Source: a virus (Duplodnaviria > Heunggongvirae > Uroviricota > Caudoviricetes). Taken from it: 41,346 nucleotides of DNA. Location of the stretch: positions 1 to 41,346 of the IMG/VR virus record IMGVR_UViG_2690316296_000007. One strand, given 5' to 3'. The notes beneath the pieces are model-generated. The model saw nothing but the letters and a program-made list of their open reading frames with translations. It did not search any database and was not told the DNA's origin. Each line of letters begins with the position of its first letter. Position 1 is the first letter of the stretch. This document shows positions 302 to 39,978 of the stretch, piece after piece. The position numbers and the translations under genes are program-made.

Positions 302-1681
302 ATGTGGGAAGATAAGTATATTTGTCATAAATGCGTGAACGATAAATATGTCATGCAGCATATAATAAAAACTGGAAATAATTTTCAGATTTGCTCTTAC
401 TGCAAAAGGAAGCGTAAAAACATCCACCTCAAATATATTCTCAAGATGATGAATGAGGTTTTTGAGTACTACTATGATATATATGAGGATATCTATGATT
501 CCGGGCGCGGTGATAGCGCGCAGGATGTCATCTACGGAGAACTGGGCGTCGAATGGGACGTAGCTGAAGATATTTATGAATTTCTTTGTGATGAATATAA
601 TCCGCATAACGATTATGACTACATCCGGTATAATGACGGGTTTCTTTATCGGCACATAAATCACTATAGCGGAGAGCTTGCGCATACCTGGAGTAAAGCC
701 ACTGACTCCCTTATGAAAGAAACACGATATTTTAACCGTGAAGTTAATGATTTCCTAGATTCACTTTTCAGTGATATCGATAAACTAAAAAACAGAGACA
801 GTAATTCACCGATAAAAACTCTGACTGATGAGGTTCATCTTTTTCGTGCAAGGGTTTTTGAGGACCAAGAGGAAGTAAAGCAAGCCTTGGAGCATCCCGA
901 GAAAAATTTTGGACCTCCCCCAACAACTTTGGCTCGCTCGGGCCGTATGAACGCACAGGGGATTTCAGTATTTTACGGTGCAACCTCAGTGAATTTGGCA
1001 ATTGCTGAAGTAAGGCCGCCCGTCGGCAGTATTGTAGTAACGGCCTGTTTTGTACCGTTACGCGAGCTAAAAGTGCTGGACATTTCTGCCCTTGACTCGA
1101 TTAGTTTCGGCTCAGGTAGTAAATTTGATCCTCAGACTCGCAAAACCAGTGAGCGCGCGATTTTTTTCAGTACGCTTTCCCGTAAGTTGACGCTTCCTAC
1201 TTTTGGAAAAAGGCAGGACAGTGATTACCTCATCACCCAAGTGGTTGCCGATTACCTAGGTGACCGAAATAAATTTAAGCTTGATGGTGTCAGCTTTAAA
1301 TCTACCCAGGTAGATGCCAACGGTGAGGATGCTGAGACAGGATATAATGTCGTTCTGTTTAATAAGTCTTCCGGCGTCAGGCATGCCGCAGATAAATCTC
1401 GCCGATATAATGTTGAGATGTATGAACACATCGAAGATGACCAGTATGCTTTTGTTCCGGAAATTCAGTTGATAGTTGAGGAACAAATAAAACCGAGACA
1501 TATGGGTTCATTTTCATCCTCGCATGACAAAAATGATGCACTACTGTTGAAAACCAACAGTATGACTTATCATAAAATTACTGGTGTAAAATACCAAACA
1601 AGTGAGACGGAGATTCATCAGGGAGATAGCGTTCGAAAACAAGAGCCACCTCAGAAATTCGATGACCTGATTGACTTCTGA
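302..1681 (+). CDS. RES-domain protein with N-terminal zinc-ribbon-like extension (candidate NAD-targeting toxin/defence effector)
   Basis: 459-aa ORF; N-terminus has two CxxC pairs (CHKC ... CSYC); central segment HLFRARVF ... SGRMNAQGISVFYGATSVNLAIAEV fits the RES-domain pattern (conserved Arg, then GRxN...Y...A..E); AT-rich relative to the structural genes. Confidence 0.6.
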   Translation: MWEDKYICHKCVNDKYVMQHIIKTGNNFQICSYCKRKRKNIHLKYILKMMNEVFEYYYDIYEDIYDSGRGDSAQDVIYGELGVEWDVAEDIYEFLCDEYNPHNDYDYIRYNDGFLYRHINHYSGELAHTWSKATDSLMKETRYFNREVNDFLDSLFSDIDKLKNRDSNSPIKTLTDEVHLFRARVFEDQEEVKQALEHPEKNFGPPPTTLARSGRMNAQGISVFYGATSVNLAIAEVRPPVGSIVVTACFVPLRELKVLDISALDSISFGSGSKFDPQTRKTSERAIFFSTLSRKLTLPTFGKRQDSDYLITQVVADYLGDRNKFKLDGVSFKSTQVDANGEDAETGYNVVLFNKSSGVRHAADKSRRYNVEMYEHIEDDQYAFVPEIQLIVEEQIKPRHMGSFSSSHDKNDALLLKTNSMTYHKITGVKYQTSETEIHQGDSVRKQEPPQKFDDLIDF

Positions 1682-1945: not shown

Positions 1946-2335
1946 ATAGATATGTAAGCTCACACCAGAGCTCATACAACTTCTTGCGGCATTTCCGGCC
2001 ATTCAGGATTTGCAGGATCCACACGACTGACCAGAACGCTGTAGCGTTCCCATGCCTCCAGTCGACTGCGCTCCTCATCTGTTGCCATATTCAGCCTGAC
2101 AGCGCGCTCCAGCGGCAAAATCACGGATTCAGCATCTGCTAGAAGTCTGGCTTTCCGATAGCCCATTTAAAGGATAACTTCCAAAGCAGTGGCAACTAAC
2201 ACTATTTATATCATGAGCAAGGCTTTTCCAGTTTTCATGCTCTCAGGGCATAAAAGTATCAACTATTTCTAATCCATGCCGATACTAACAAAAATACCAC
2301 CATAAAATATAATTAAGAAAATGTTAAGGATCTAC

Positions 2336-3010
2336 ATGAAAAGCTATTTAAAAGGTGTTTGGGAATACTTCGCGAGTCACATGTTGTTTATGTATCTCGG
2401 CTCAGTCTCTTTTGCATGGATTGATATCTGGTTTTTTAAAAAAATTGAACCATCAACAATTACTGCAACAGTTTCAACAATAACACTTGGACTAGCGATT
2501 TATGCATTAACAAGGGTAAATGAATGGATTAAAAACAAAAAATCAGAAAAGGCTTTCGAGAGAACTACATTGTTCATCGACAGCATGTTTCGATCAAAGG
2601 ACTTAAATCATCAATGTTATCAATCACTTATTTCTATACAGCCAAGAATAAAAAGTGAGAACCCCATACTCTACAAGCATCTCACTACAAGTGGGAGGGA
2701 GTTACTTTCTGAGTCAAAAGATTTACGATTCGAATTAGTTGCAATTCGGGATAGTTTTGGTTTGTGGAAAATCAAACCTAATCATTCAGACCTTCTAAAT
2801 AATCTCATCACCACCTACACTGCTCTTGTTGCACAATTTAATATCATTTATATTTTAATTGATGAATTAGAGCGTGGTGAAAGGGTAGTTTCTGAGTCAT
2901 CATGGGATAGTTATATCGGAATGATGGCAAGCGCTTATTCAAATTACCATGATCAGTTCGAAATATTCAAAGATTGTAGCTACAATGAACTTTTTAAAAT
3001 CATTAAATAA
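2336..3010 (+). CDS. Hypothetical membrane protein (two N-terminal TM helices)
   Basis: ORF 2321..3010; the ATG at 2336 is preceded by AAGGA; hydrophobic stretches SHMLFMYLGSVSFAWIDIWFF and TATVSTITLGLAIYAL; AT-rich. Confidence 0.45.
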   Translation: MKSYLKGVWEYFASHMLFMYLGSVSFAWIDIWFFKKIEPSTITATVSTITLGLAIYALTRVNEWIKNKKSEKAFERTTLFIDSMFRSKDLNHQCYQSLISIQPRIKSENPILYKHLTTSGRELLSESKDLRFELVAIRDSFGLWKIKPNHSDLLNNLITTYTALVAQFNIIYILIDELERGERVVSESSWDSYIGMMASAYSNYHDQFEIFKDCSYNELFKIIK

Positions 3011-3203: not shown

Positions 3204-4502
3204 TCACCATGAAGGATAATTAGGTTTTTTTCCTCTTAAAAGAGATACTTTGTCAATTATCTCAACAGAAGCAGTTCTATAATCCTCCTGCTGAAGTAGG
3301 TGAACTGCATAATCTCTCAATTCTTGCAAAGTGGAAAAGCCGTTACTTTCGATGAGTATTATAATTATCTTAATATACTTAAAGATTTGTTCAGAGGATT
3401 CGTTCGCGTTGACGTTAAGTTCGTAAAAATCTTTACCATCATGAACAAGCTTGTTTCTTACGTCAGTATATAACTCGTCATAAACTTCTAGGTTTTTCTT
3501 AAATTTGATTAGTGAGTTATTACATGTAAGTGCTGCAATGTAGGTCCTTTGCTTCCATCCTTTCCAATTTGGGTCAATATTAGCAAGACCATCAAGTGCA
3601 AAGACTAGGTTTAGAAATTGTGATTCCGCGCCAATTGAATAAAAAGATTGCCTACATGCCCTAACTACGGAGCTAACTAATTTTGAAAGTTCATTTTCAA
3701 CGACTCCATCGTAGATAGAAGATAAATATTGCAACCCAGGGTAATACAAGCTGTCAACCTGAGGGCCTAGCCAATTATTACTCACAGCAAGGGGTCTTGA
3801 TATTCCACTTATCTTAATTGGTTTAAGATGAGTCCTCTCACGAGGAATGATTTCTACATCATAAAATCCGTCAGAGCGTTGACCTGCAGGATTAGGGGTA
3901 TATTCCATACGTGTAAATGAGCTGTGAGAAAATCTGACTAAATCAAGCGCATATTCAGCTATAGATAAACACATGTTTATAACATGGTTGTTATGATCAA
4001 TGCTTGAATTAAGTTTTAATAAATCAATATATGGTAGGTCACAGTTAAACTGTATATACGAACCATCTTGCTCTGATAATCGCTTATGTGACTCTTCATC
4101 AAATTGTCTTCCGCAATAAAAAATATACTTTCCGATCTCGATGGTTTCCTGAATGAAAATCTTCTCAATCGGCACAATAACTATGCACTCCATATTTTTG
4201 TTTTTACCCTCTAATTCAGCTAATTCTAGGTTAGAGCTTCTTGATTTAGCTAACTCTATTTCTACCCACTCAAAGCATATTGAGAAGTCTTCTAGAATTT
4301 CGATACTGCTTTTTTGATAACTATCCTTGGTATATTTAAATGTAATGCCATCTCCTTCAGGATAGGCACTGGCCCAATATCCCATATCTCTTAACTTTTT
4401 TAGAGATGTTGAGATATCGTCGACTTTATTAATAAAATCCTCTTTTCGCCATAAAACATTGCCAGTGTAGTTTTCGTACGGTGGTATTAAACGAGCTTTC
4501 AT
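3204..4502 (-). CDS. Hypothetical 432-aa cargo protein with Rx4H (HEPN-like) motif; candidate abortive-infection effector
   Basis: Long AT-rich ORF with AAGGAAG 6 nt upstream of the ATG; C-terminal region contains RNKLVHDG (R-x4-H); flanked by the repeated hairpin motif. Confidence 0.5.
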   Translation of the reverse strand: MKARLIPPYENYTGNVLWRKEDFINKVDDISTSLKKLRDMGYWASAYPEGDGITFKYTKDSYQKSSIEILEDFSICFEWVEIELAKSRSSNLELAELEGKNKNMECIVIVPIEKIFIQETIEIGKYIFYCGRQFDEESHKRLSEQDGSYIQFNCDLPYIDLLKLNSSIDHNNHVINMCLSIAEYALDLVRFSHSSFTRMEYTPNPAGQRSDGFYDVEIIPRERTHLKPIKISGISRPLAVSNNWLGPQVDSLYYPGLQYLSSIYDGVVENELSKLVSSVVRACRQSFYSIGAESQFLNLVFALDGLANIDPNWKGWKQRTYIAALTCNNSLIKFKKNLEVYDELYTDVRNKLVHDGKDFYELNVNANESSEQIFKYIKIIIILIESNGFSTLQELRDYAVHLLQQEDYRTASVEIIDKVSLLRGKKPNYPSW

Positions 4503-12665: not shown

Positions 12666-13196
12666 TTAGCGAGTCAGAAACAACGAATCTTTATACTTTT
12701 GCTGTTGTTCATTTAAATACTTAGCTGTTTCATCGCTGGCAAATGGAAATATTACCGTATTTTTAGGCATGGTAATTTCTTTTTTGTCCAGCGTCAGAGT
12801 AAACATAGGAACATACTGAGCAGAGTAACGCACCGCAGAAACGAGCTCTAGTTTAGACTCTTCAATAACACTTAAATTATCCAGGCTAACTTTCTCTTCA
12901 TCTTTTTTCTTTGACGCATTTAAAGTTTTTATTACTTTATTTAATTTCTCCTGAAAATCCTCCTTAAAGTTTTCAGGATTGCCGTCGACAACAAGAATCT
13001 GTTCGCCCTGATTATCTGGAAAAATAATCTTTGCACTTATCAATTTATTTTCTTTATAAACATCACCAAGTTTTATGGCTCCTCCAGATAACTGAATAAT
13101 ATGTTCATCTTTAAAGGAGATGTTGCCAGAGATTATGAGAGATGAAAAAATAGCCGCTGCTCCAAGAATTACACTTGCTGTGATATAGCCTTTCAT
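12666..13196 (-). CDS. Moron: predicted secreted/periplasmic protein, unknown function
   Basis: AT-rich 176-aa ORF between tape measure and DNA circulation genes; signal-peptide-like N-terminus MKGYITASVILGAAAIFSSLIISG; lysine-rich; own terminator. Confidence 0.55.
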   Translation of the reverse strand: MKGYITASVILGAAAIFSSLIISGNISFKDEHIIQLSGGAIKLGDVYKENKLISAKIIFPDNQGEQILVVDGNPENFKEDFQEKLNKVIKTLNASKKKDEEKVSLDNLSVIEESKLELVSAVRYSAQYVPMFTLTLDKKEITMPKNTVIFPFASDETAKYLNEQQQKYKDSLFLTR

Positions 13197-22849: not shown

Positions 22850-24583
22850 TTAAAGCGAGCGGATCCCATAGGACTCAATGTGGTCAGACAGCGTGTCTTC
22901 TTTCTCGTACAGCATGGCTCTGCCAACCGCCATAATCAGCGCAACTGCACCGTCAATTTTGTTTTCCGCCTGCTCTTTGACGGGCTTCACCACATCATCG
23001 TTACCCGGAATGGTTTTGCCGACCACGTTGCCGATACACCAGGTCATGATGGGATTGCCATCATGATGAAAGCGCCCCGATTCAATTGCCGCTTCCAGCT
23101 CTTTCATCGGGTCGGACATGTTGGTGTAGTTCTGAATGATAGTGATGGGGTTCAGGTCTTCATCAGCAAGGTCATGTGACAACCCGGTCGCCCCGAAGGG
23201 GTCGATGGGTGACTCACTGACCGGGCTGATTTTGTTCGCTGCTTTGGCCTCTTCGAGGATGTAGCGATAATCCACCTCTGCACCATCGGTAACGGTCAGG
23301 ACGCCCATTTCCACCCATTTCTGAAAGCGTTCGGCTGTCCGGCGATCTTCATTTTTCTCGACGCTGTACACCGTGTCATACGGTACCCAGAAACGCGGGG
23401 CTACACTGTAGTAATGCGTTTTACCGTCAATCTCGCGGGTATAAAGTCGCGCCATGCTGTTCATATCCAGCTTACGCGCCAGGTCAAAGGCCAGAATGCA
23501 CGGCTGCCCCTCGAACTGCTCAAGGGTAAGTGATTTATCCTCGCAGCTCTGCCAGCTCACCAGGTTGAAATACGCCGAACGCGCCGACACCCAGATATTG
23601 AGGTGTTTTGTTTTAAAGACGTTTGCCAGACGGGCGTTATTTTTCGCACGCTGTTGCTGACTTAACAAAAACTCACGGTAAACCGACACCCCGATATTCG
23701 GGTTAGCTTTTTCCAGCACCTGTGGGTCGGTCCAGTCGTCACCTTCGTCAACGGTATAGATGATCCCGAACAGTTCATCGTTGGGTACCGACCCGTTGAG
23801 CATCTCGATAACTTCCCGCCGCTTGTCGTAGCACGGCCCCTCAATGTTGTACCCGGCAGTAGTAATGGCCCACATCAGTGGCTGACGTCGCGCCCCCATC
23901 CCGGTAAGCATCGTGGTGTAAAGCGCATCGGTGGCGTGCTCGTGATATTCATCCACCACCGCACAGTGGGGTGATGATCCATCACCGGGGTTACCGATCA
24001 GCGGTTCAAACCGCGCGCCATCCTCCGGACGGTTCATGTTTGAGGCGTTAACCTCAATCCCGAACGCTTCCGTCAGCATGGGTGTGCGTTTACACATCAG
24101 TCGCGCCGGGCGAAAGACTTCCCACGCCTGTTTCTCTGTCGTGGCACCGGAATACACTTCCGCGCCAAACTCGTTATCACAGGCAAAACAATACAGGGCG
24201 ACACCGGCAGAGATTGCCGATTTGCCGTTCTTACGGGGAATTTCGGTATACACCTCCCGGAAGCGGCGCAGCCGGGTACCTTTATTGACCCAGCCAAACG
24301 CACAGCAGATCACAAAGAGCTGCCACGGCTCCAGCGTGATGGGCATCCTCTTGAATGCCCACTCCCCCTTGGTGTGCGGCAACAGTTGAATAAATTTGGC
24401 GGCCCGTTCAGCCAGGTCCTTGTCGAAGCGGTAACGAAACGACTTACTTTTTTCCGCCATCAGGTCATCAAGATGGCGCTGGCAGGCCTGAATCACAAAC
24501 TGGCAGGCCACAATCTTTCCGCGCACGACATCACGGGCATACTGATTGGCAGCATTTACGTTGGGGTAAGATTTCCGGCTCAT
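22850..24583 (-). CDS. Terminase large subunit
   Basis: 577-aa ORF with ATPase and nuclease character, overlapping the TerS stop. Confidence 0.9.
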
Positions 24584-25074
24584 GACTCGATGATTTTCAG
24601 AAACGGGTTAGTGGCTTTCTTCTGCCCCGCCAGGCCAATCAGACGCTGGCGGCTGCTGGGGTCGAGTCCGAGCATTGCCCCCGTGCTGCTCATCTCGGAC
24701 TCCTGTTCTTTTTTGGCGGTCAGCTCCGGATTTTTGACCCTGCCGCCCATTGCACCGGTGATGGTGTTGCCCTGTATGGCAATATTTTTCACGGCACGTC
24801 GCCAGAACTCATAGGCCACGCACCACCGCTCAAGCACCGCGAGGTCAGTCACGCACAGCAGGCCCTGACCGCAGAGTTCTTTGGTTGTCAGTTGCCACAT
24901 GATCGTGGCGAGAGGGAGATCTTCTTCAGCGAACCACTCCGGTGGCTCAACACCTTTGATGGGCGTAAAAACAGGTTCATCTTTGTTCAGGGCTCGCTTG
25001 CCAGGGTTTCCGGCCAGCGCCTTGCGCGCCGTTGGCTTGGGGCGACGCCCGGAACGCCCCGCCGTTCCAGCCAT
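24580..25074 (-). CDS. Terminase small subunit (P27 family)
   Basis: N-terminus [30 protein letters not shown]; the ATG at 25074 is preferred over the track's GTG at 25083. Confidence 0.8.
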
Positions 25075-25083
25075 ATGCGGCAC

Positions 25084-25199: not shown

Positions 25200-25550
25200 T
25201 CACTTTAACCGTTCACGGGCCGTCTTCGCCTTATGACACGGCCAGCACAGACTCTGCAGATTACTGTCAGCATCAGTGCCGCCATGCGCTTTAGGGATGA
25301 TGTGGTCAACAGTTTTCGCCTCACGCACCACACCAGCACGCAGACATAACTGACACAGACCTTTGTCACGCTTCAGAACACGCGCGCGGATACTGTCCCA
25401 CTTCGAACCGTAGCCGCGCTGATGACGGGATTGTCCAGGTTTGTATTGCTTCCAGCCTTCGCTTTTGTGGCTTTCGCAGTAGCCTGACGGGTCAGTAGTG
25501 GTATGGCGGCAGCCGCGAACACGGCAGGCTTTTGGGGTTCGTAGGGGCAT
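25200..25550 (-). CDS. HNH endonuclease (terminase-associated)
   Basis: Cys-rich zinc-finger motifs plus DHIIPKAHGGTDADSNLQSLCWPCH; start at the ATG at 25550, preceded by AAGAGGA. Confidence 0.85.
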   Translation of the reverse strand: MPLRTPKACRVRGCRHTTTDPSGYCESHKSEGWKQYKPGQSRHQRGYGSKWDSIRARVLKRDKGLCQLCLRAGVVREAKTVDHIIPKAHGGTDADSNLQSLCWPCHKAKTARERLK

Positions 25551-25700
25551 TGCATAATCCTCTTGGATGGTTCGCGTACGATACGTGGCATCCTTCTCAG
25601 AATCGAATCGCACTCCATTCCGGTTTTGCCATAAACGATCTTTTATGCTTCGCTGGATGTAGTTGATAGTTGTTGAAACTCAATGAACAGGAGTTCACAA

Positions 25701-26036
25701 ATGAATAGTTATGAATGGGAATGGCTTTTGAACAAAGATGACACCCTATACTTTTTCCCCGTAGGCCATTCTGTAGAAGGTAATTACAAAATTCACTTTG
25801 AGTTGAGCGGTAGTTGTAACCTTAGAGTCTCTGATGCTGAATGGCATGGTAAACCTGTACTGCTGTTCGAATACTTCGATGAAGATGATGACCGCCCTGC
25901 AATAATCGAAATATTAGAAACAACCACTACAACTGTGGAGGCGATGATCGCACATCTGAATAGTATCGATAGTATTTACCATGAACCGATTTACAAAGCT
26001 GTTTACGAGTGGGCTGTAAAGTTTTTCTATCGATGA
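25701..26036 (+). CDS. Hypothetical acidic cargo protein
   Basis: AT-rich plus-strand ORF opposite to the late operon; CAGGAG before the ATG at 25701; acidic stretch FEYFDEDDDRPAIIEILE. Confidence 0.5.
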   Translation: MNSYEWEWLLNKDDTLYFFPVGHSVEGNYKIHFELSGSCNLRVSDAEWHGKPVLLFEYFDEDDDRPAIIEILETTTTTVEAMIAHLNSIDSIYHEPIYKAVYEWAVKFFYR

Positions 26037-26079
26037 TACTTCGTTATCTTTCTGGCATTCACAATACCTTTACATATTA

Positions 26080-26706
26080 ATGACATGCCAGCACAATACT
26101 GTCACTTACAACCGTTCGGATTACCTAGAGAAAAGTATGATTCAGGATTTACTGATCGAAGCAATTAGTCACGATAGGATGCATAAAAAGTTAAATGAAC
26201 TGAATGGCTACTTCTACAATCGCAAACATGAAACACAAATACGTGATGAGTTAGTTGTTATACTCAATCAAATCAGCACACTAACTGCTTTAAGTGAGCA
26301 TCCAAAACTCGGTATCGGCGCTGTTGACATATCACTTTATAACCAGTCGATATTAACGTCTGAACATAATGGCAATGTTGCAACCATCGAGATAAAACAC
26401 CATTACCCAAAGGATTTACTTTATCGGCAAGTTCAAGAAGACATCATTTCCGATATTTCAAGAGTAATAGTTTCACCAACTACACATTTTATCCATATAA
26501 TCCAGCAAAGAACCAGGATTAATACTCCTTCTTTTGGCCAAGTGAAATTCCTTGAACGTGATGCAAGTGATATCAGCACTTATGTGCAATACCTTGAAGA
26601 GCTAAGTTCATTTCCCAGTAATTTTCATAAAAAAAGTATATGTATTGAGGTACTTGGTGAAATTATGTCGACATATACCTTTAACGTATATTCATTTGAC
26701 AACTGA
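26080..26706 (+). CDS. Hypothetical cargo protein with possible PD-(D/E)xK nuclease signature
   Basis: AT-rich ORF (alternative start 26137); GAVDISLY ... TIEIKHH fits the D ... ExK spacing. Confidence 0.45.
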   Translation: MTCQHNTVTYNRSDYLEKSMIQDLLIEAISHDRMHKKLNELNGYFYNRKHETQIRDELVVILNQISTLTALSEHPKLGIGAVDISLYNQSILTSEHNGNVATIEIKHHYPKDLLYRQVQEDIISDISRVIVSPTTHFIHIIQQRTRINTPSFGQVKFLERDASDISTYVQYLEELSSFPSNFHKKSICIEVLGEIMSTYTFNVYSFDN

Positions 26707-26727
26707 TCAATTTGACAATTTTATTGC

Positions 26728-26985
26728 TTAATGGTTAGTTCTCTCTGCATCTATTTTACGAATATCAGCTTTATCCCGATTGCAGTTAGCCAGTGCAGAC
26801 AACAGGCTCACATTCAGCTCCAGGCTGGCACCATACGTCAGCGGATTGGGTATAAACGGTACAGGAGTATCAGAAGTCAGGCTGGCTGGCAGTGGTGCCA
26901 CCGGAGCGCTCACGTAAACCGTTCGCGAATTTCCGCAACCGGTCAGCAGCGGCAGCAGGCACAGGACGTGAAGCACAATCATCAT
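26728..26985 (-). CDS. Rz1-like outer-membrane lipoprotein (o-spanin)
   Basis: ORF in another frame overlapping the 3' end of Rz; lipobox LLTGC; Pro-rich. Confidence 0.6.
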   Translation of the reverse strand: MMIVLHVLCLLPLLTGCGNSRTVYVSAPVAPLPASLTSDTPVPFIPNPLTYGASLELNVSLLSALANCNRDKADIRKIDAERTNH

Positions 26986-27262
26986 CCGCAACAGCCACTT
27001 TGATATCTTCCTGGGTTCTCTGTGACTCCAGTGCGATCTGCTGTTTTGCATGCTGGTTAACCTCTATAACTGTATTGACGATTTGCAGTGATTGCAGGAC
27101 GTTACGGGTAATGGCTGTTGCAGATTCAACATTTTGTACAGCCTCATCAGCACGTTTCTTTTCGTGCTGATATTTGCTGTAGTAGTGGTTGGCAGACCAG
27201 ATGAAAGAACCGATGACAGTAAAGAAGAATGCAGCGATAACCAGCTTATAGCTCAACTTCAT
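26870..27262 (-). CDS. Rz-like i-spanin
   Basis: 130-aa ORF after the endolysin; N-terminal TM helix then a charged helical region. Confidence 0.7.
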   Translation of the reverse strand: MKLSYKLVIAAFFFTVIGSFIWSANHYYSKYQHEKKRADEAVQNVESATAITRNVLQSLQIVNTVIEVNQHAKQQIALESQRTQEDIKVAVADDDCASRPVPAAAADRLRKFANGLRERSGGTTASQPDF

Positions 27263-27722
27263 TTACCCCCCCACCAGCCTCTTTAAACCGGGAAATCAGG
27301 TCACCGATTTTATGTTCATACTGACCGTAACCTGCACCAGGTAACGACGCCCAGATATTGCTGCAACGATCGATAGCCTGACGGATATCACCGCGATCAA
27401 TCATCGGTAAAGCGCCACGCTCTTTAATCTGCTGCAATGCCACTGCGTCCTGGCTTTTGGGGGAGAAGTCTTTCAAACCAAGCTGTTTACGGTAAGCATC
27501 CCACCAGCGTGAAAGAAGCTGATAACGTCCGGCGGCTGTTGATTTGAGTTTGGGGTTTAACGTGACAAGTTTGCGAGGGTGATCAGAGTAATCAGTAAAC
27601 AGTTCGCCGCCAACAATAACATCATAACCGTGATTACGTGTCGGTTGTCGCCCGTTATCCGTTCCTTCTGACCAAGCCACCATATCAAGGAAAGCTTTAC
27701 GCTGGGGATTTAGCACCTGCAT
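27246..27722 (-). CDS. R: Endolysin (lambda R-like lytic transglycosylase)
   Basis: NPQRKAFLDMVAWSEGTDNGRQPTRNHGYDVIVGGELFTDYSDHPRKLVTLNPKLKSTAAGRYQLLSRWWDAYRKQLGL closely matches lambda R as recalled. Confidence 0.9.
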   Translation of the reverse strand: MQVLNPQRKAFLDMVAWSEGTDNGRQPTRNHGYDVIVGGELFTDYSDHPRKLVTLNPKLKSTAAGRYQLLSRWWDAYRKQLGLKDFSPKSQDAVALQQIKERGALPMIDRGDIRQAIDRCSNIWASLPGAGYGQYEHKIGDLISRFKEAGGGVNEVEL

Positions 27723-27725
27723 AAA

Positions 27726-28052
27726 TTACTCCTTAGAACCACCAAACTTATTACCGATTACTCTCATTGCAGCCCCACGAATAGCATCGACACCGATCAA
27801 CCCAACGCCACCACCAATGGCAACAGAAAGAGATTTAGGCCATCCGACATACTCAAGAGCGGATGCAAAAGTCAGCGTCAGAGCACCACAGAGCAAAATC
27901 TCGAGCGTTTTTCGTTTCCAGCCCCCACCACCGCCAAAATATGCAATGCGCAAGCCAGCCATAACAATCGACATAATCACTGCGCCCAGCGGTGTGTCTC
28001 CACGCCACCAGCTCTGGACCAACTCCAACCAAGTATTTGGGTTATGAGGCAT
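27726..28052 (-). CDS. Holin (three predicted TM segments)
   Basis: 108-aa ORF immediately upstream of the endolysin; hydrophobic segments with a charged C-terminus. Confidence 0.65.
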   Translation of the reverse strand: MPHNPNTWLELVQSWWRGDTPLGAVIMSIVMAGLRIAYFGGGGGWKRKTLEILLCGALTLTFASALEYVGWPKSLSVAIGGGVGLIGVDAIRGAAMRVIGNKFGGSKE

Positions 28053-28331: not shown

Positions 28332-29153
28332 ATGAATTTTTCTTACACAAAACAGGATGGTCATACCAAACGCTGCCTTGTCAGAGCATTCAATGTTAAT
28401 ACAGCAACAACAGATATACTCTTCGACCAAATTTCAAATTCTGGTAAATTTATTGTTGACACTGTTTTTAAAATAAACAATGAACAACATTTAATACTGA
28501 AAGAGTTTTCTACAAATAATAAAAGTCATTACTTACACTTTGCATTATATAATCCAAAAGAACAAGTATCGATCACACCAAAAATAAAAACCGCAAGCGA
28601 TCTTCTTGATGTTGAAAACCTTGACAATTTGCACGCTTTTTTATATGTAAAAGAAAATAAAATTGCATCTCTAATGCAAATATCAACAAATTGGTGTGAA
28701 ATTAAAATCGCTAAAATATTCGAGCAATTTGGTATAAAAATAACACCATCAGCAATTTTGCAAAAAAATGTCATTCAACGAATTAAAGATGATAAACTTA
28801 GGGCTTTGCATCTTAATATTAGCGTTGATGCTTCTAATTTTGTGAAAACGCCCAGCTTTATAGACTCTATTTTTCAGAAAGAACCCAAACTTAAAGCTAG
28901 AGGTATTTCAGGACATTTAACTCTTGATGCAAAAGGAAATGCTGAACTAGCACAATCTATTGAAACCAACCCTAGTGGTTGGATAAATGATTTGGATTCT
29001 GATTTTTATATAGAAACAAAAAAAGGAGAGAAAATAACTAGTGACGACATTAAGTTAACAAAAGTTTATTATACAGTCCCTTATGGTTCAAAATCTATTA
29101 ATTCAAAATATGCGAAAGAAATTCTAGAGGACTTTGCTCAAAAAGAGCTATAA
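28332..29153 (+). CDS. Cargo protein A, 273 aa, soluble, unknown function
   Basis: AT-rich ORF with strong Shine-Dalgarno, antisense to the late operon; no recognisable motif. Confidence 0.55.
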   Translation: MNFSYTKQDGHTKRCLVRAFNVNTATTDILFDQISNSGKFIVDTVFKINNEQHLILKEFSTNNKSHYLHFALYNPKEQVSITPKIKTASDLLDVENLDNLHAFLYVKENKIASLMQISTNWCEIKIAKIFEQFGIKITPSAILQKNVIQRIKDDKLRALHLNISVDASNFVKTPSFIDSIFQKEPKLKARGISGHLTLDAKGNAELAQSIETNPSGWINDLDSDFYIETKKGEKITSDDIKLTKVYYTVPYGSKSINSKYAKEILEDFAQKEL

Positions 29154-29176
29154 TATACTAAAAAAAGGAGGCTAAC

Positions 29177-29662
29177 ATGTTAAAATCACTCAATTACTCA
29201 GGTATATCATTAACTTTGTTAAACATTTTAGCCTCAGTATTATTTTCAATTTTCCTCACACATACTTTAACGAACAATACTGACGCATTAAATTTGGTCG
29301 CCAATGTATTTTCTATCCTATCTGGTTTTCTTTTGTTGGTTATCACAATGTCTGGTGAAAACTCTACTCTGATGAACAACTTAAGCAAATTAGACGCTGC
29401 AAATCAAGAAATACGTTTCCTCATGCGTTTTAACAAATATTATGCTTTATTCTTGTTATATATTTTAACATTAGCTTTAATTTTTGTTTTTTATTTAATA
29501 TCCAAGGATAAAGAAAACACATCTCAATACTTCATTCTGTTTAAGAAGTCAATTGGTTACATTATCTCTTTTTTAACTTGTTTTTCTTTTATACAATCAA
29601 CATTCATCCCACTAAAAATAAAAGAATTATTTAAAGAGAAAAGACAACTTAATAAAAAATAG
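29177..29662 (+). CDS. Cargo protein B, 161 aa, four predicted TM helices
   Basis: AAGGAGG Shine-Dalgarno; four hydrophobic segments; ends at the terminator. Confidence 0.55.
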   Translation: MLKSLNYSGISLTLLNILASVLFSIFLTHTLTNNTDALNLVANVFSILSGFLLLVITMSGENSTLMNNLSKLDAANQEIRFLMRFNKYYALFLLYILTLALIFVFYLISKDKENTSQYFILFKKSIGYIISFLTCFSFIQSTFIPLKIKELFKEKRQLNKK

Positions 29663-39902: not shown

Positions 39903-39978
39903 TGGTGCCGATAATAGGAGTCGAACCTACGACCTTCGCATTACGAATGCGCTGCTCTACCAACTGAGCTATATCGGC
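39903..39978 (-). tRNA. thrW: tRNA-Thr (anticodon CGU)
   Basis: 76-nt cloverleaf GCCGATATAGCTCAGTTGGTAGAGCAGCGCATTCGTAATGCGAAGGTCGTAGGTTCGACTCCTATTATCGGCACCA; anticodon loop TT-CGT-AA; 3' CCA end faces the integrase. Confidence 0.9.

What the first reader, a model, noticed from the sequence alone, without database searches (positions are those of the whole stretch)
25614..26727. Plus-strand two-gene cargo cassette between the packaging and lysis modules; second protein has a PD-(D/E)xK-like signature
Two AT-rich genes (an acidic 111-aa protein and a 208-aa protein) are inserted antisense between HNH and Rz1. The larger protein contains VDISL ... IEIKH spaced like the catalytic D ... ExK of restriction-type nucleases, and the small acidic partner could be a regulator or inhibitor. 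This may be a nuclease-based defence or toxin-immunity pair.
Basis: inference. Interest (0 to 1): 0.6.

Follow-up and report, generated by a model that had tools for sequence, protein, structure and literature searches.

The report
Two separate prophage add-on genes, one nuclease
Two unrelated accessory genes sit side by side in a highly variable slot of an E. coli prophage. The larger one encodes a small, unclassified restriction-enzyme-like nuclease that occurs on its own in other bacteria, so it is probably a stand-alone (likely anti-phage) nuclease, not half of a toxin–antidote pair.

Summary
Two AT-rich plus-strand genes lie antisense between the HNH gene and Rz1 of an SfV-like E. coli prophage. 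They fill a 1.2-kb segment (25551-26758) that is only 72 bp in phage SfV.

ORF-A (25701-26036) is 111 aa and acidic. ORF-B most likely starts at 26137 (189 aa), not 26080 (208 aa).

The toxin–immunity reading is not supported. Outside the E. coli cassette the two genes never co-occur: ORF-B was alone in 15 loci and ORF-A alone in 8, mostly at this same lysis–terminase slot. No methyltransferase is linked to ORF-B.

The slot is a cargo hotspot, with gaps of about 180-1540 bp among near-identical phages.

Best reading: two independent morons. ORF-B is a new, rare, single-gene PD-(D/E)xK endonuclease family, plausibly used for defence. That function is inferred, not shown.

The parts
25551..26758 (.). 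Variable (cargo) segment of the lysis-to-terminase hotspot. It is bounded by the start of the HNH gene and the last ~10 codons of Rz1.
   Evidence: blastn against phage SfV, vB_EcoM-689R6 and 118970_sal3: homology ends at 25547-25564 and resumes at 26757-26762. SfV has 72 bp here. GC is 0.24-0.40 against 0.49-0.55 in the flanks.
25701..26036 (+). ORF-A: a 111-aa acidic cytoplasmic protein (phrog_14397, WP_053897783-like). It is an independent moron of unknown function.
26037..26136 (+). Spacer between the two genes, with a promoter-like site TTTACA-17-CACAAT at 26069-26097.
   Evidence: Consensus scan. The scan found no more sites than in shuffles, so this is only a candidate. ORF-B-only loci in Enterobacter, Yersinia and Citrobacter carry a conserved TATAAT block here that is missing (9-nt gap) in the window.
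26137..26706 (+). ORF-B: a 189-aa PD-(D/E)xK-fold putative Mg2+-dependent endonuclease (phrog_12494, WP_053897784-like). The alternative upstream ATG at 26080 gives 208 aa.
   Evidence: The start at 26137 is shared by homologues of other genera.
26224..26232 (+). Codons K30-H31-E32 (invariant K and E on the first core helix).
   Evidence: Invariant in 39 divergent relatives. They lie in helix 29-46 of the model.
26326..26328 (+). Codon D64 (the 'D' of the PD motif, at the start of core strand 2).
   Evidence: Invariant. Strand 65-68 in the model.
26389..26397 (+). Codons E85-I86-K87 (the ExK motif on core strand 3).
   Evidence: E and K are invariant. Strand 80-89 in the model.
25200..25550 (-). 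Left flank: HNH endonuclease gene of the packaging module (116 aa).
   Evidence: PGAP annotation of sister prophages. 92% identical to SfV orf53.
26728..27051 (-). Right flank: Rz1/LysC o-spanin gene, convergent with ORF-B (21 bp between the stop codons).
   Evidence: No terminator-like hairpin was found between the convergent genes.

Best explanation
The 1.2-kb segment holds two independent accessory genes ('morons') stacked in the variable slot between the lysis cassette and the packaging genes of an SfV-like prophage. This is the position that bor occupies in phage lambda. Both genes are read antisense to the late operon, so they are probably expressed from the repressed prophage.

ORF-B is the founding E. 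coli member of a small, uncharacterised family of single-gene PD-(D/E)xK endonucleases. D64, E85 and K87 on strands 2 and 3 form the metal-binding catalytic site. E32 and K30 on the preceding helix complete it, as E45 does in EcoRV (my knowledge of EcoRV, not tested here). An N-terminal helical pair and a C-terminal helix plus beta-hairpin are available for dimerisation or DNA contact.

ORF-B has no partner methyltransferase and no conserved neighbour. I therefore infer that it is harmless to the host chromosome, either because of what it recognises or because it needs a trigger. Candidate substrates are DNA lacking the host's methylation, DNA carrying phage-type modifications, or a DNA structure. 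I also infer that its benefit is cutting incoming phage or foreign DNA.

ORF-A is a separate acidic 13-kDa cytoplasmic protein of unknown role. It happens to be adjacent in the E. coli version.

Shown: the gene structure, the insertion, separability of the two genes, the invariant catalytic residues, the predicted fold, and the variability of the slot. Inferred: nuclease activity, expression in the lysogen, the defence role, and how self-DNA is spared.
For: Insertion and composition.

Moron criteria come from the literature. GC differs from neighbours and morons have their own expression signals (PMC3594210). Genes antisense to lytic genes are characteristic of accessory loci, and lambda lom and bor are expressed in lysogens (PMC7067206).

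Separability: ORF-B alone in 15 loci, ORF-A alone in 8, together only in the E. coli cassette (with contexts). There is no conserved same-strand neighbour of ORF-B.

Active site and fold:
- Only K30, E32, D64, E85 and K87 are invariant in 39 relatives at 19-65% identity.
- The AF2 model has pLDDT 85.4 and pTM 0.85, with element order H29-46, E50-53, E65-68, E80-89, H91-107, E117-127.
- Single remote members weakly hit HSDR_N (1.4e-4), PDDEXK_4 (1.2e-3), the Shedu SduA nuclease (1e-5) and REase_II (4e-3).

Autonomous module: a conserved TATAAT-containing upstream block travels with ORF-B in four ORF-B-only loci: Enterobacter, two Yersinia and Citrobacter.

Hotspot:
- Among 62 IMG/VR phages with 96-99% identical HNH, the Rz-HNH gap ranges from about 180 to 1540 bp, with many different gene sets. 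One is the PADLOC defence candidate PDC-S45 at 9e-45.
- The neighbouring Q-holin slot of a sister prophage carries TIR and caspase-like genes.
- Remote ORF-B relatives sit next to STAND-like AAA_16, WYL and WapI genes.
Against: - No experiment or transcript data exist for these genes.
- There is no PADLOC, Pfam or NCBIfam hit for ORF-B itself.
- Foldseek against the PDB found nothing (best E 0.13).
- Family profiles find no PDB sequence.
- The profile-profile comparison with the EcoRV family failed (E 0.4).
- The promoter scan gave no more sites than shuffles, and no terminator was found.
- Most other cargo in the hotspot is not recognisably defensive. The commonest is a GrlR-like protein in 17 loci.
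- A solitary nuclease with no known way of sparing host DNA is an unexplained point, not evidence for the model.
Confidence: 0.45

Rival explanations
1. ORF-B is a toxic nuclease, and the acidic ORF-A is its cognate inhibitor, immunity protein or regulator. Together they form a two-gene toxin-immunity or defence pair.
For: - The two genes are adjacent, on the same strand, 100 bp apart, and always together in the E. coli version. 73 of the 80 E. coli genomes with a match (of 5426 searched) carry at least 80% of the cassette. So do 4 IMG/VR phages.
- ORF-A is small and acidic (pI 4.56), as many nuclease inhibitors are.
- The window's ORF-B lacks the TATAAT block seen upstream of solitary ORF-B genes. 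It could therefore be co-transcribed with ORF-A.
Against: - Each gene occurs without the other: 15 ORF-B-only and 8 ORF-A-only loci by tblastn with 5-6 kb flanks.
- Yersinia, Citrobacter, Proteus and chromosomal ORF-B loci have no plausible upstream partner at all.
- The Enterobacter upstream ORF (77 aa) is unrelated to ORF-A.
Confidence: 0.07
2. ORF-B is a selfish, free-standing homing-type endonuclease gene. It spreads between co-infecting or resident lambdoid phages by cutting genomes that lack it near the lysis-terminase junction.
For: - Sporadic presence at the same relative position in otherwise near-identical phages.
- The same slot is used in phages with unrelated terminases: P27-type plus HNH, Terminase_2, and lambda GpA.
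- PD-(D/E)xK homing endonucleases are known (my knowledge, not tested).
Against: - The flanking sequences differ completely between carriers, so there is no conserved target site.
- The gene is antisense and AT-rich, like lysogen-expressed morons, not co-transcribed with phage lytic genes.
- It also occurs in non-phage chromosomal and island contexts.
- Many unrelated cargos use the same slot.
Confidence: 0.1
3. ORF-B is an active PD-(D/E)xK enzyme with a role other than defence. Examples: a structure-specific DNA repair or recombination nuclease, an RNA-cleaving enzyme, or a lysogenic-conversion factor that benefits host physiology.
For: - One relative (44-47% identity) lies between tusA/recJ and an acetyltransferase gene, with uracil-DNA glycosylase and DNA ligase genes 0.7-4 kb away.
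- Much of the cargo in this slot is not recognisably defensive, such as the GrlR-like protein.
Against: - The prophage already encodes a RusA resolvase.
- The family is extremely rare and patchy: 48 clusters in 1.84 billion representatives, 4 of 185,579 species genomes, and 1.5% of E. coli. That pattern fits accessory conflict genes better than housekeeping functions.
- The best structural matches are sequence-specific restriction enzymes.
Confidence: 0.18
4. ORF-B is an orphan type II restriction endonuclease. Its 'cognate' protection comes from a methyltransferase encoded elsewhere, such as host Dam or Dcm. It would cut only DNA that enters unmethylated.
For: - Its size and fold are typical of homodimeric type IIP enzymes, and the best hits (SwaI, BglI, EcoRV) are of that kind.
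- No methyltransferase is linked in any locus.
- All named carriers are Enterobacterales, which are Dam-positive (Dam status is from my knowledge).
Against: This is pure inference with no specificity data. The narrow host range may only reflect the range of lambdoid phages. The hosts of the remote relatives are unknown. This reading is a special case of the best explanation, not truly exclusive of it.
Confidence: 0.1

Closest known systems
Type IIP restriction endonucleases of the EcoRV-like structural class (R.SwaI, BglI, EcoRV)
   Same: - Small single-domain PD-(D/E)xK core with a helix glutamate, D on strand 2 and (D/E)xK on strand 3.
- One pairwise hhalign against the EcoRV sequence aligned E54-x-P-K...D64...E85-x-K87 in register with EcoRV E65-P-K...D74...D90-x-K92. 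The support is weak: E 0.02, probability 2%.
   Different: - No cognate methyltransferase anywhere near.
- No sequence-profile relationship: hhalign against a 37-member EcoRV family alignment gave E 0.4, out of register.
- No hit to PF09233 or any PDB sequence.
- It sits in a prophage late region, not in an R-M operon.
Lambda bor and other lambdoid 'morons'
   Same: - Same slot, between Rz/Rz1 and the terminase genes.
- Antisense to the late operon, deviant GC, absent from close relatives.
- Moron criteria and lysogen expression of bor are from PMC3594210 and PMC7067206. The map position of bor is from my own knowledge.
   Different: Bor is an outer-membrane lipoprotein. ORF-A and ORF-B are cytoplasmic, and ORF-B is a nuclease-fold protein. 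No promoter or terminator could be demonstrated here.
Single-gene nuclease defences such as Shedu (SduA, DUF4263 PD-(D/E)xK nuclease)
   Same: A solitary PD-(D/E)xK nuclease gene with no methyltransferase, found on mobile elements. One remote ORF-B relative hits the PADLOC SduA model at 1e-5.
   Different: ORF-B itself and its close relatives do not match SduA. From my own knowledge, ORF-B is also much shorter than SduA and has no large N-terminal sensor domain like SduA's. No defence phenotype is known.
P2/P4 prophage defence hotspots (Rousset et al. 2022, PMC9122126)
   Same: A fixed intergenic slot in a conserved phage backbone that carries many alternative cargo cassettes. Gaps run from about 180 to 1540 bp in phages with 96-99% identical flanking HNH. 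At least one recognised defence candidate, PDC-S45, is among the cargo.
   Different: A different phage lineage and a different slot. Here most cargo is unannotated, so the defence content of the slot is not established.

Membership tests
PD-(D/E)xK (restriction endonuclease-like) superfamily | Alpha-beta-beta-beta-alpha-beta core fold | tested here: met
PD-(D/E)xK (restriction endonuclease-like) superfamily | Conserved catalytic D on strand 2 and (D/E)-x-K on strand 3 | tested here: met
   D64, E85 and K87, plus K30 and E32, are the only invariant columns among 39 relatives at 19-65% identity. They fall at the predicted strand and helix positions.
PD-(D/E)xK (restriction endonuclease-like) superfamily | Significant match to a curated PD-(D/E)xK sequence family | tested here: inconclusive
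   ORF-B has no hit in Pfam, NCBIfam or PADLOC. Only single remote relatives give weak hits: HSDR_N 1.4e-4, PDDEXK_4 1.2e-3, SduA 1e-5, REase_II 4e-3. I did not check which residues those hits cover.
PD-(D/E)xK (restriction endonuclease-like) superfamily | Divalent-metal-dependent phosphodiester cleavage | not testable with these tools
   Needs purified protein and D64A/E85A/K87A controls.
EcoRV family (Pfam PF09233) | Profile-level sequence homology to EcoRV-family proteins | tested here: not met
   hhalign of A3 or A1 against a 37-sequence EcoRV family alignment gave E 0.4, probability 0.1%, out of register. A single-sequence comparison gave E 0.02 in register, which the profile did not confirm.
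Type II restriction-modification system | Adjacent cognate DNA methyltransferase | tested here: not met
   No methyltransferase lies next to ORF-B in the window's sister annotations or in the Enterobacter, Providencia, chromosomal or remote loci. The only one seen is a D12-class gene 3.3 kb away in another slot of one Yersinia prophage.
Toxin-antitoxin / toxin-immunity pair | Conserved co-occurrence and adjacency of the two genes across lineages | tested here: not met
   tblastn of both proteins on 26 loci: together only in the E. coli cassette, ORF-B alone in 15, ORF-A alone in 8. No alternative conserved neighbour.
Known anti-phage defence systems (PADLOC-DB 2.0) | HMM match to a catalogued defence protein | tested here: not met
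   No hit for ORF-A or ORF-B at E up to 1. Of 39 family members, one hits SduA and one hits REase_II weakly.
Phage moron | Extra DNA relative to close relatives, with deviant base composition | tested here: met
   1208 bp against 72 bp in SfV. GC 0.35-0.40 against 0.49-0.55 in the flanks. Present in 80 of 5426 E. coli genomes.
Phage moron | Own promoter and terminator; expression from the repressed prophage | tested here: inconclusive
   One promoter-like site lies before ORF-B (26069-26097), none before ORF-A, and no terminator was found. The counts do not exceed shuffles. A conserved TATAAT block lies upstream of ORF-B in other genera. No transcript data are available.
Free-standing homing endonuclease | Conserved target or insertion site in genomes that lack the gene | tested here: not met
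   Carriers have unrelated flanking genes: three different terminase types, various lysis genes, and chromosomal sites.
Type IV (modification-dependent) restriction enzyme | A domain that reads modified bases, and cleavage only of modified DNA | not testable with these tools
   No recognisable reader domain was found. The 189-aa protein has only a short N-terminal helical pair and a C-terminal helix plus hairpin besides the core. Substrate preference needs biochemistry.

The most novel reading that the evidence does not exclude
ORF-B founds a new family of methylase-independent, single-gene anti-phage endonucleases carried by lambdoid prophages. It would spare the host chromosome by an unconventional rule, such as dependence on host Dam/Dcm methylation, on phage-specific DNA modification, or on a DNA structure made during infection. 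The Rz1-to-terminase slot (the lambda 'bor' position) would be a general defence hotspot of lambdoid phages, comparable to the P2/P4 hotspots. ORF-A and the many other unannotated cargos there would then be candidate defence or counter-defence genes.
Probability: 0.3. Interest if true: 0.55.

Novelty: new member of a known kind. Interest (0 to 1): 0.35.

Why it matters
If ORF-B is an active solitary restriction-type nuclease, it raises a concrete question. How does a 22-kDa endonuclease with no methyltransferase and no partner avoid cutting its own host? It would also add a compact single-gene candidate to the list of prophage-borne defences.

More broadly, the survey shows that the slot between the spanin genes and the packaging genes is a rapidly exchanging cargo site in SfV-like and other lambdoid prophages. 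Most of its contents are unannotated. That makes it a cheap place to look for new lysogen-expressed functions.

The finding remains a sequence- and model-based assignment to a very well known enzyme superfamily. It corrects the proposed two-gene mechanism; it does not reveal a new one.

Tried and rejected
1. Foldseek of the ORF-B model against the PDB gave no hit better than E 0.13. The afdb50 library was not available.
2. phmmer and hmmsearch of ORF-B and of family profiles A1 and A3 against PDB sequences found nothing meaningful.
3. Pfam, NCBIfam and PADLOC on ORF-A and ORF-B gave only noise.
4. EcoRV lead. By eye, 'SEHPK-x7-D-ISLY ... IEIKHHY' resembles EcoRV 'EEPK-x6-D-FTLY ... IDIKTTY'.
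   - I validated my recalled EcoRV sequence against 1eo3.
   - A weak in-register pairwise alignment followed (E 0.02).
   - The comparison with an EcoRV family profile failed.
   - Membership in the EcoRV family is therefore rejected.
With A1 it found only 4 species genomes.
7. A literature search for the four RefSeq accessions returned nothing. General searches on prophage defence found no paper on this family.
8. The repeat search found no flanking direct repeats and only two short imperfect inverted pairs, probably chance. Rfam found only the tRNA at the attachment site.
Cluster look-ups gave no organism names for remote relatives.

Full report
**What the window is.** The window is an SfV-like, Mu-tailed lambdoid prophage of E. 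coli, integrated at a tRNA gene next to proA. PGAP annotates that tRNA as tRNA-Thr in a sister prophage. Its late operon runs on the minus strand:
- Q
- holin (27726-28052)
- endolysin (27246-27722)
- Rz (26870-27262) and Rz1 (26728-27051)
- HNH (25200-25550)
- small terminase (24580-25083)
- large terminase (22850-24583)

**The observation.** Two plus-strand ORFs lie between HNH and Rz1.
- ORF-A is 25701-26036, 111 aa. It has an AGGAG ribosome-binding site 7 nt upstream, and PGAP annotates the same form. It is acidic, with pI 4.56.
- ORF-B can be read from 26080 (208 aa). However, PHROG 12494, PGAP and all homologues from other genera start at M20, 'MIQ...', at 26137. That gives 189 aa.
- GC is 0.40 for ORF-A and 0.35 for ORF-B, against 0.55 and 0.49 in the flanks.
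- Homology to phage SfV ends at 25550 and resumes at 26759. SfV has 72 bp where the window has 1208 bp. The segment is therefore a genuine insertion or replacement.
- The cassette is present in 80 of 5426 complete E. coli genomes at 95-99.9% identity.

**Is the D...ExK motif more than chance?** Not by itself. A loose D-x(10-30)-[DE]-x-K pattern occurs in half of the shuffles of ORF-B and in 23 of 37 long ORFs of the window. The version flanked by hydrophobic residues occurs in 1.3% of shuffles. The weight comes from conservation.
- ORF-B has only 31 relatives in a 5.8-billion-protein search, all from Enterobacterales where the source is named.
- An exhaustive profile search of 1.84 billion cluster representatives found just 48 clusters.
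- In an alignment of 39 of these, at 19-65% identity to ORF-B, the only invariant columns are K30, E32, D64, E85 and K87.

**Fold.**
- AlphaFold2 with the family alignment gave pLDDT 85.4 and pTM 0.85.
- The order of elements is helix 29-46 (carrying K30 and E32), strand 50-53, strand 65-68 (D64 at its start), strand 80-89 (E85, K87), helices 91-107, and strand 117-127.
- That is the alpha-beta-beta-beta-alpha-beta core of restriction-endonuclease-like enzymes. An N-terminal helical pair and a C-terminal helix plus hairpin are added to it.
- BglI (6.8), EcoRV (5.7), MspI, BamHI, SfiI, NgoMIV, NlaIV, PaqCI and Hjc (5.3-5.6) also appear. They are interleaved with Rossmann methyltransferases and IF3-C/Alba folds at similar scores.

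Several other tests were negative or weak.
- Foldseek found nothing.
- No curated family matches ORF-B.
- Single remote relatives give weak hits to four different PD-(D/E)xK models: HSDR_N, PDDEXK_4, SduA and REase_II.
- A local resemblance to the EcoRV catalytic segment aligned in register in one pairwise hhalign (E 0.02). It was not confirmed against an EcoRV family profile (E 0.4).

I therefore place ORF-B in the superfamily at about 0.8 confidence, but in no known family.

**Are the two genes a pair?** No.
- I looked up contigs encoding homologues of each protein, then ran tblastn of both proteins on all 26 loci held at that point.
- They co-occur only in the E. coli cassette.
- ORF-B is alone in 15 loci: Enterobacter prophages of several types, two Yersinia, Citrobacter, Providencia, two Proteus, and a chromosomal site between tusA/recJ and an acetyltransferase gene.
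- ORF-A is alone in 8 loci.
- No other conserved same-strand neighbour of ORF-B exists. The 77-aa ORF upstream of the Enterobacter gene is unrelated to ORF-A.
- In four ORF-B-only loci, the 50 bp upstream of the start share a conserved block containing TATAAT. ORF-B therefore travels with its own upstream region. That block is missing in the window, where a weaker TTTACA-17-CACAAT site lies at 26069-26097.
- No methyltransferase is linked in any context.

A constitutively toxic nuclease could not persist alone. The toxin-immunity reading is rejected, at a residual 0.07.

**The slot.** In nearly all prophage contexts, both genes sit between the lysis cassette and the small terminase gene. They are antisense there, whatever the terminase type. 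Among 80 IMG/VR contigs whose HNH protein is 96-99% identical to the window's, 62 also had an Rz hit.
- The Rz-to-HNH gap ranges from about 180 bp (empty) to about 1540 bp, spread over about 20 length classes (20-bp bins).
- Only 4 of the 62 carry ORF-A plus ORF-B.
- Other cargo includes a GrlR-like protein (17 loci), several membrane proteins, Rha/KilA-N-type proteins (judged by eye from the sequences, not scanned), a ClpP-like protein with a 182-aa partner, and a trypsin-like protein matching the PADLOC defence candidate PDC-S45 at 9e-45.

This is a cargo hotspot at the position that bor occupies in lambda (my knowledge). It fits the literature definition of morons (PMC3594210; PMC7067206).

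**Most likely mechanism.** ORF-B is a solitary, probably homodimeric, metal-dependent endonuclease expressed from the lysogen. Its rarity, patchiness, mobile context and restriction-enzyme-like fold point to a conflict function, namely cutting incoming DNA.
- Host DNA would be spared through substrate choice (unmethylated, phage-modified or structured DNA) or through a need for activation.
- Remote relatives lie beside STAND-like, WYL and WapI genes. The adjacent Q-holin slot of a sister prophage carries TIR and caspase-like genes. Both are mild support.
- All of this is inference. Activity, expression and phenotype are untested.
- ORF-A remains of unknown function. Its model is poor (pLDDT 66) and the fold search was uninformative.

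**Verdict.** The nuclease-fold inference is supported. The pair model is refuted by comparative genomics. The result is a new, small family within a very well known superfamily, sitting in a newly documented lambdoid cargo slot. It is useful but not surprising.

Noticed in passing
window 28332-29662 (+): A second, even more AT-rich (GC 0.29) antisense two-gene cassette lies between the holin gene and Q. It encodes a 273-aa protein (phrog_23561, no Pfam hit) and a 161-aa multi-pass membrane protein, with faint SLATT_4 and '4TM effector' hits only. The same slot holds TIR plus caspase-family genes in strain T2, two other hypothetical genes in strain muskdeer13-4, and a DNA methyltransferase in SfV. 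This is a second cargo hotspot and a possible sensor plus membrane-effector defence pair.
   Followed up: partly
window 302-1681 (+), 2321-3010 (+), 3204-4502 (-): The low-GC (0.34-0.45) left end of the prophage, beyond the tail-fibre/pin invertase region, carries a 459-aa 'RES family NAD+ phosphorylase' (PGAP name in a 99.9% identical sister) and two hypothetical genes. This is another likely accessory or toxin-type cargo region.
   Followed up: no
window 12666-13196 (-): An AT-rich (GC about 0.38) 176-aa hypothetical gene sits between the DNA circularization protein gene and the tape-measure gene, co-oriented with the tail operon. It is a moron-like insertion in the tail module.
   Followed up: no
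window 25200-25613 (-): The longest HNH ORF starts at a GTG at 25613 (137 aa). PGAP and homology to SfV both support the ATG at 25550 (116 aa). The upstream region of ORF-A is therefore about 150 bp of non-coding DNA, not an overlap with HNH.
   Followed up: yes
L080/L100 (gap 1538), L069 (gap 1360), L038 and 16 others (gap 665): Alternative cargos of the same Rz-HNH slot in near-identical IMG/VR phages:
- an antisense ClpP-like protease (Pfam 2e-12) with a 182-aa partner
- a 300-aa trypsin-like protein matching PADLOC candidate PDC-S45 (9e-45)
- a 106-aa GrlR-like protein (borderline Pfam hit), the commonest occupant
   Followed up: partly
window 26100-26136 vs L004 5950-6000, L010, L023, L024: ORF-B-only loci in Enterobacter, Yersinia and Citrobacter share a conserved upstream block '...GTCATG(T/C)ATAATCCTTA...' with a perfect or near-perfect -10 hexamer. 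The E. coli cassette has a 9-nt gap exactly there. ORF-B expression in E. coli may therefore depend on a different promoter or on read-through from ORF-A.
   Followed up: partly
window 25692-25707 and 26689-26704: A 16-nt, 88% complementary inverted pair brackets the cassette, from the ORF-A start to the ORF-B stop. There are no direct repeats or other transposon hallmarks. It is probably chance.
   Followed up: no
L010 8281-10816 (Yersinia enterocolitica prophage): In the Q-holin slot of this ORF-B-carrying prophage there is a plus-strand 501-aa unannotated protein followed by a D12-class adenine methyltransferase. It may be a separate restriction-modification-like cargo, and it is not adjacent to ORF-B.
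   Followed up: no
window 39906-39978 (-): A tRNA gene (Rfam score 71.8 bits) lies next to the integrase and proA. It marks the attachment site and right end of the prophage.
   Followed up: no
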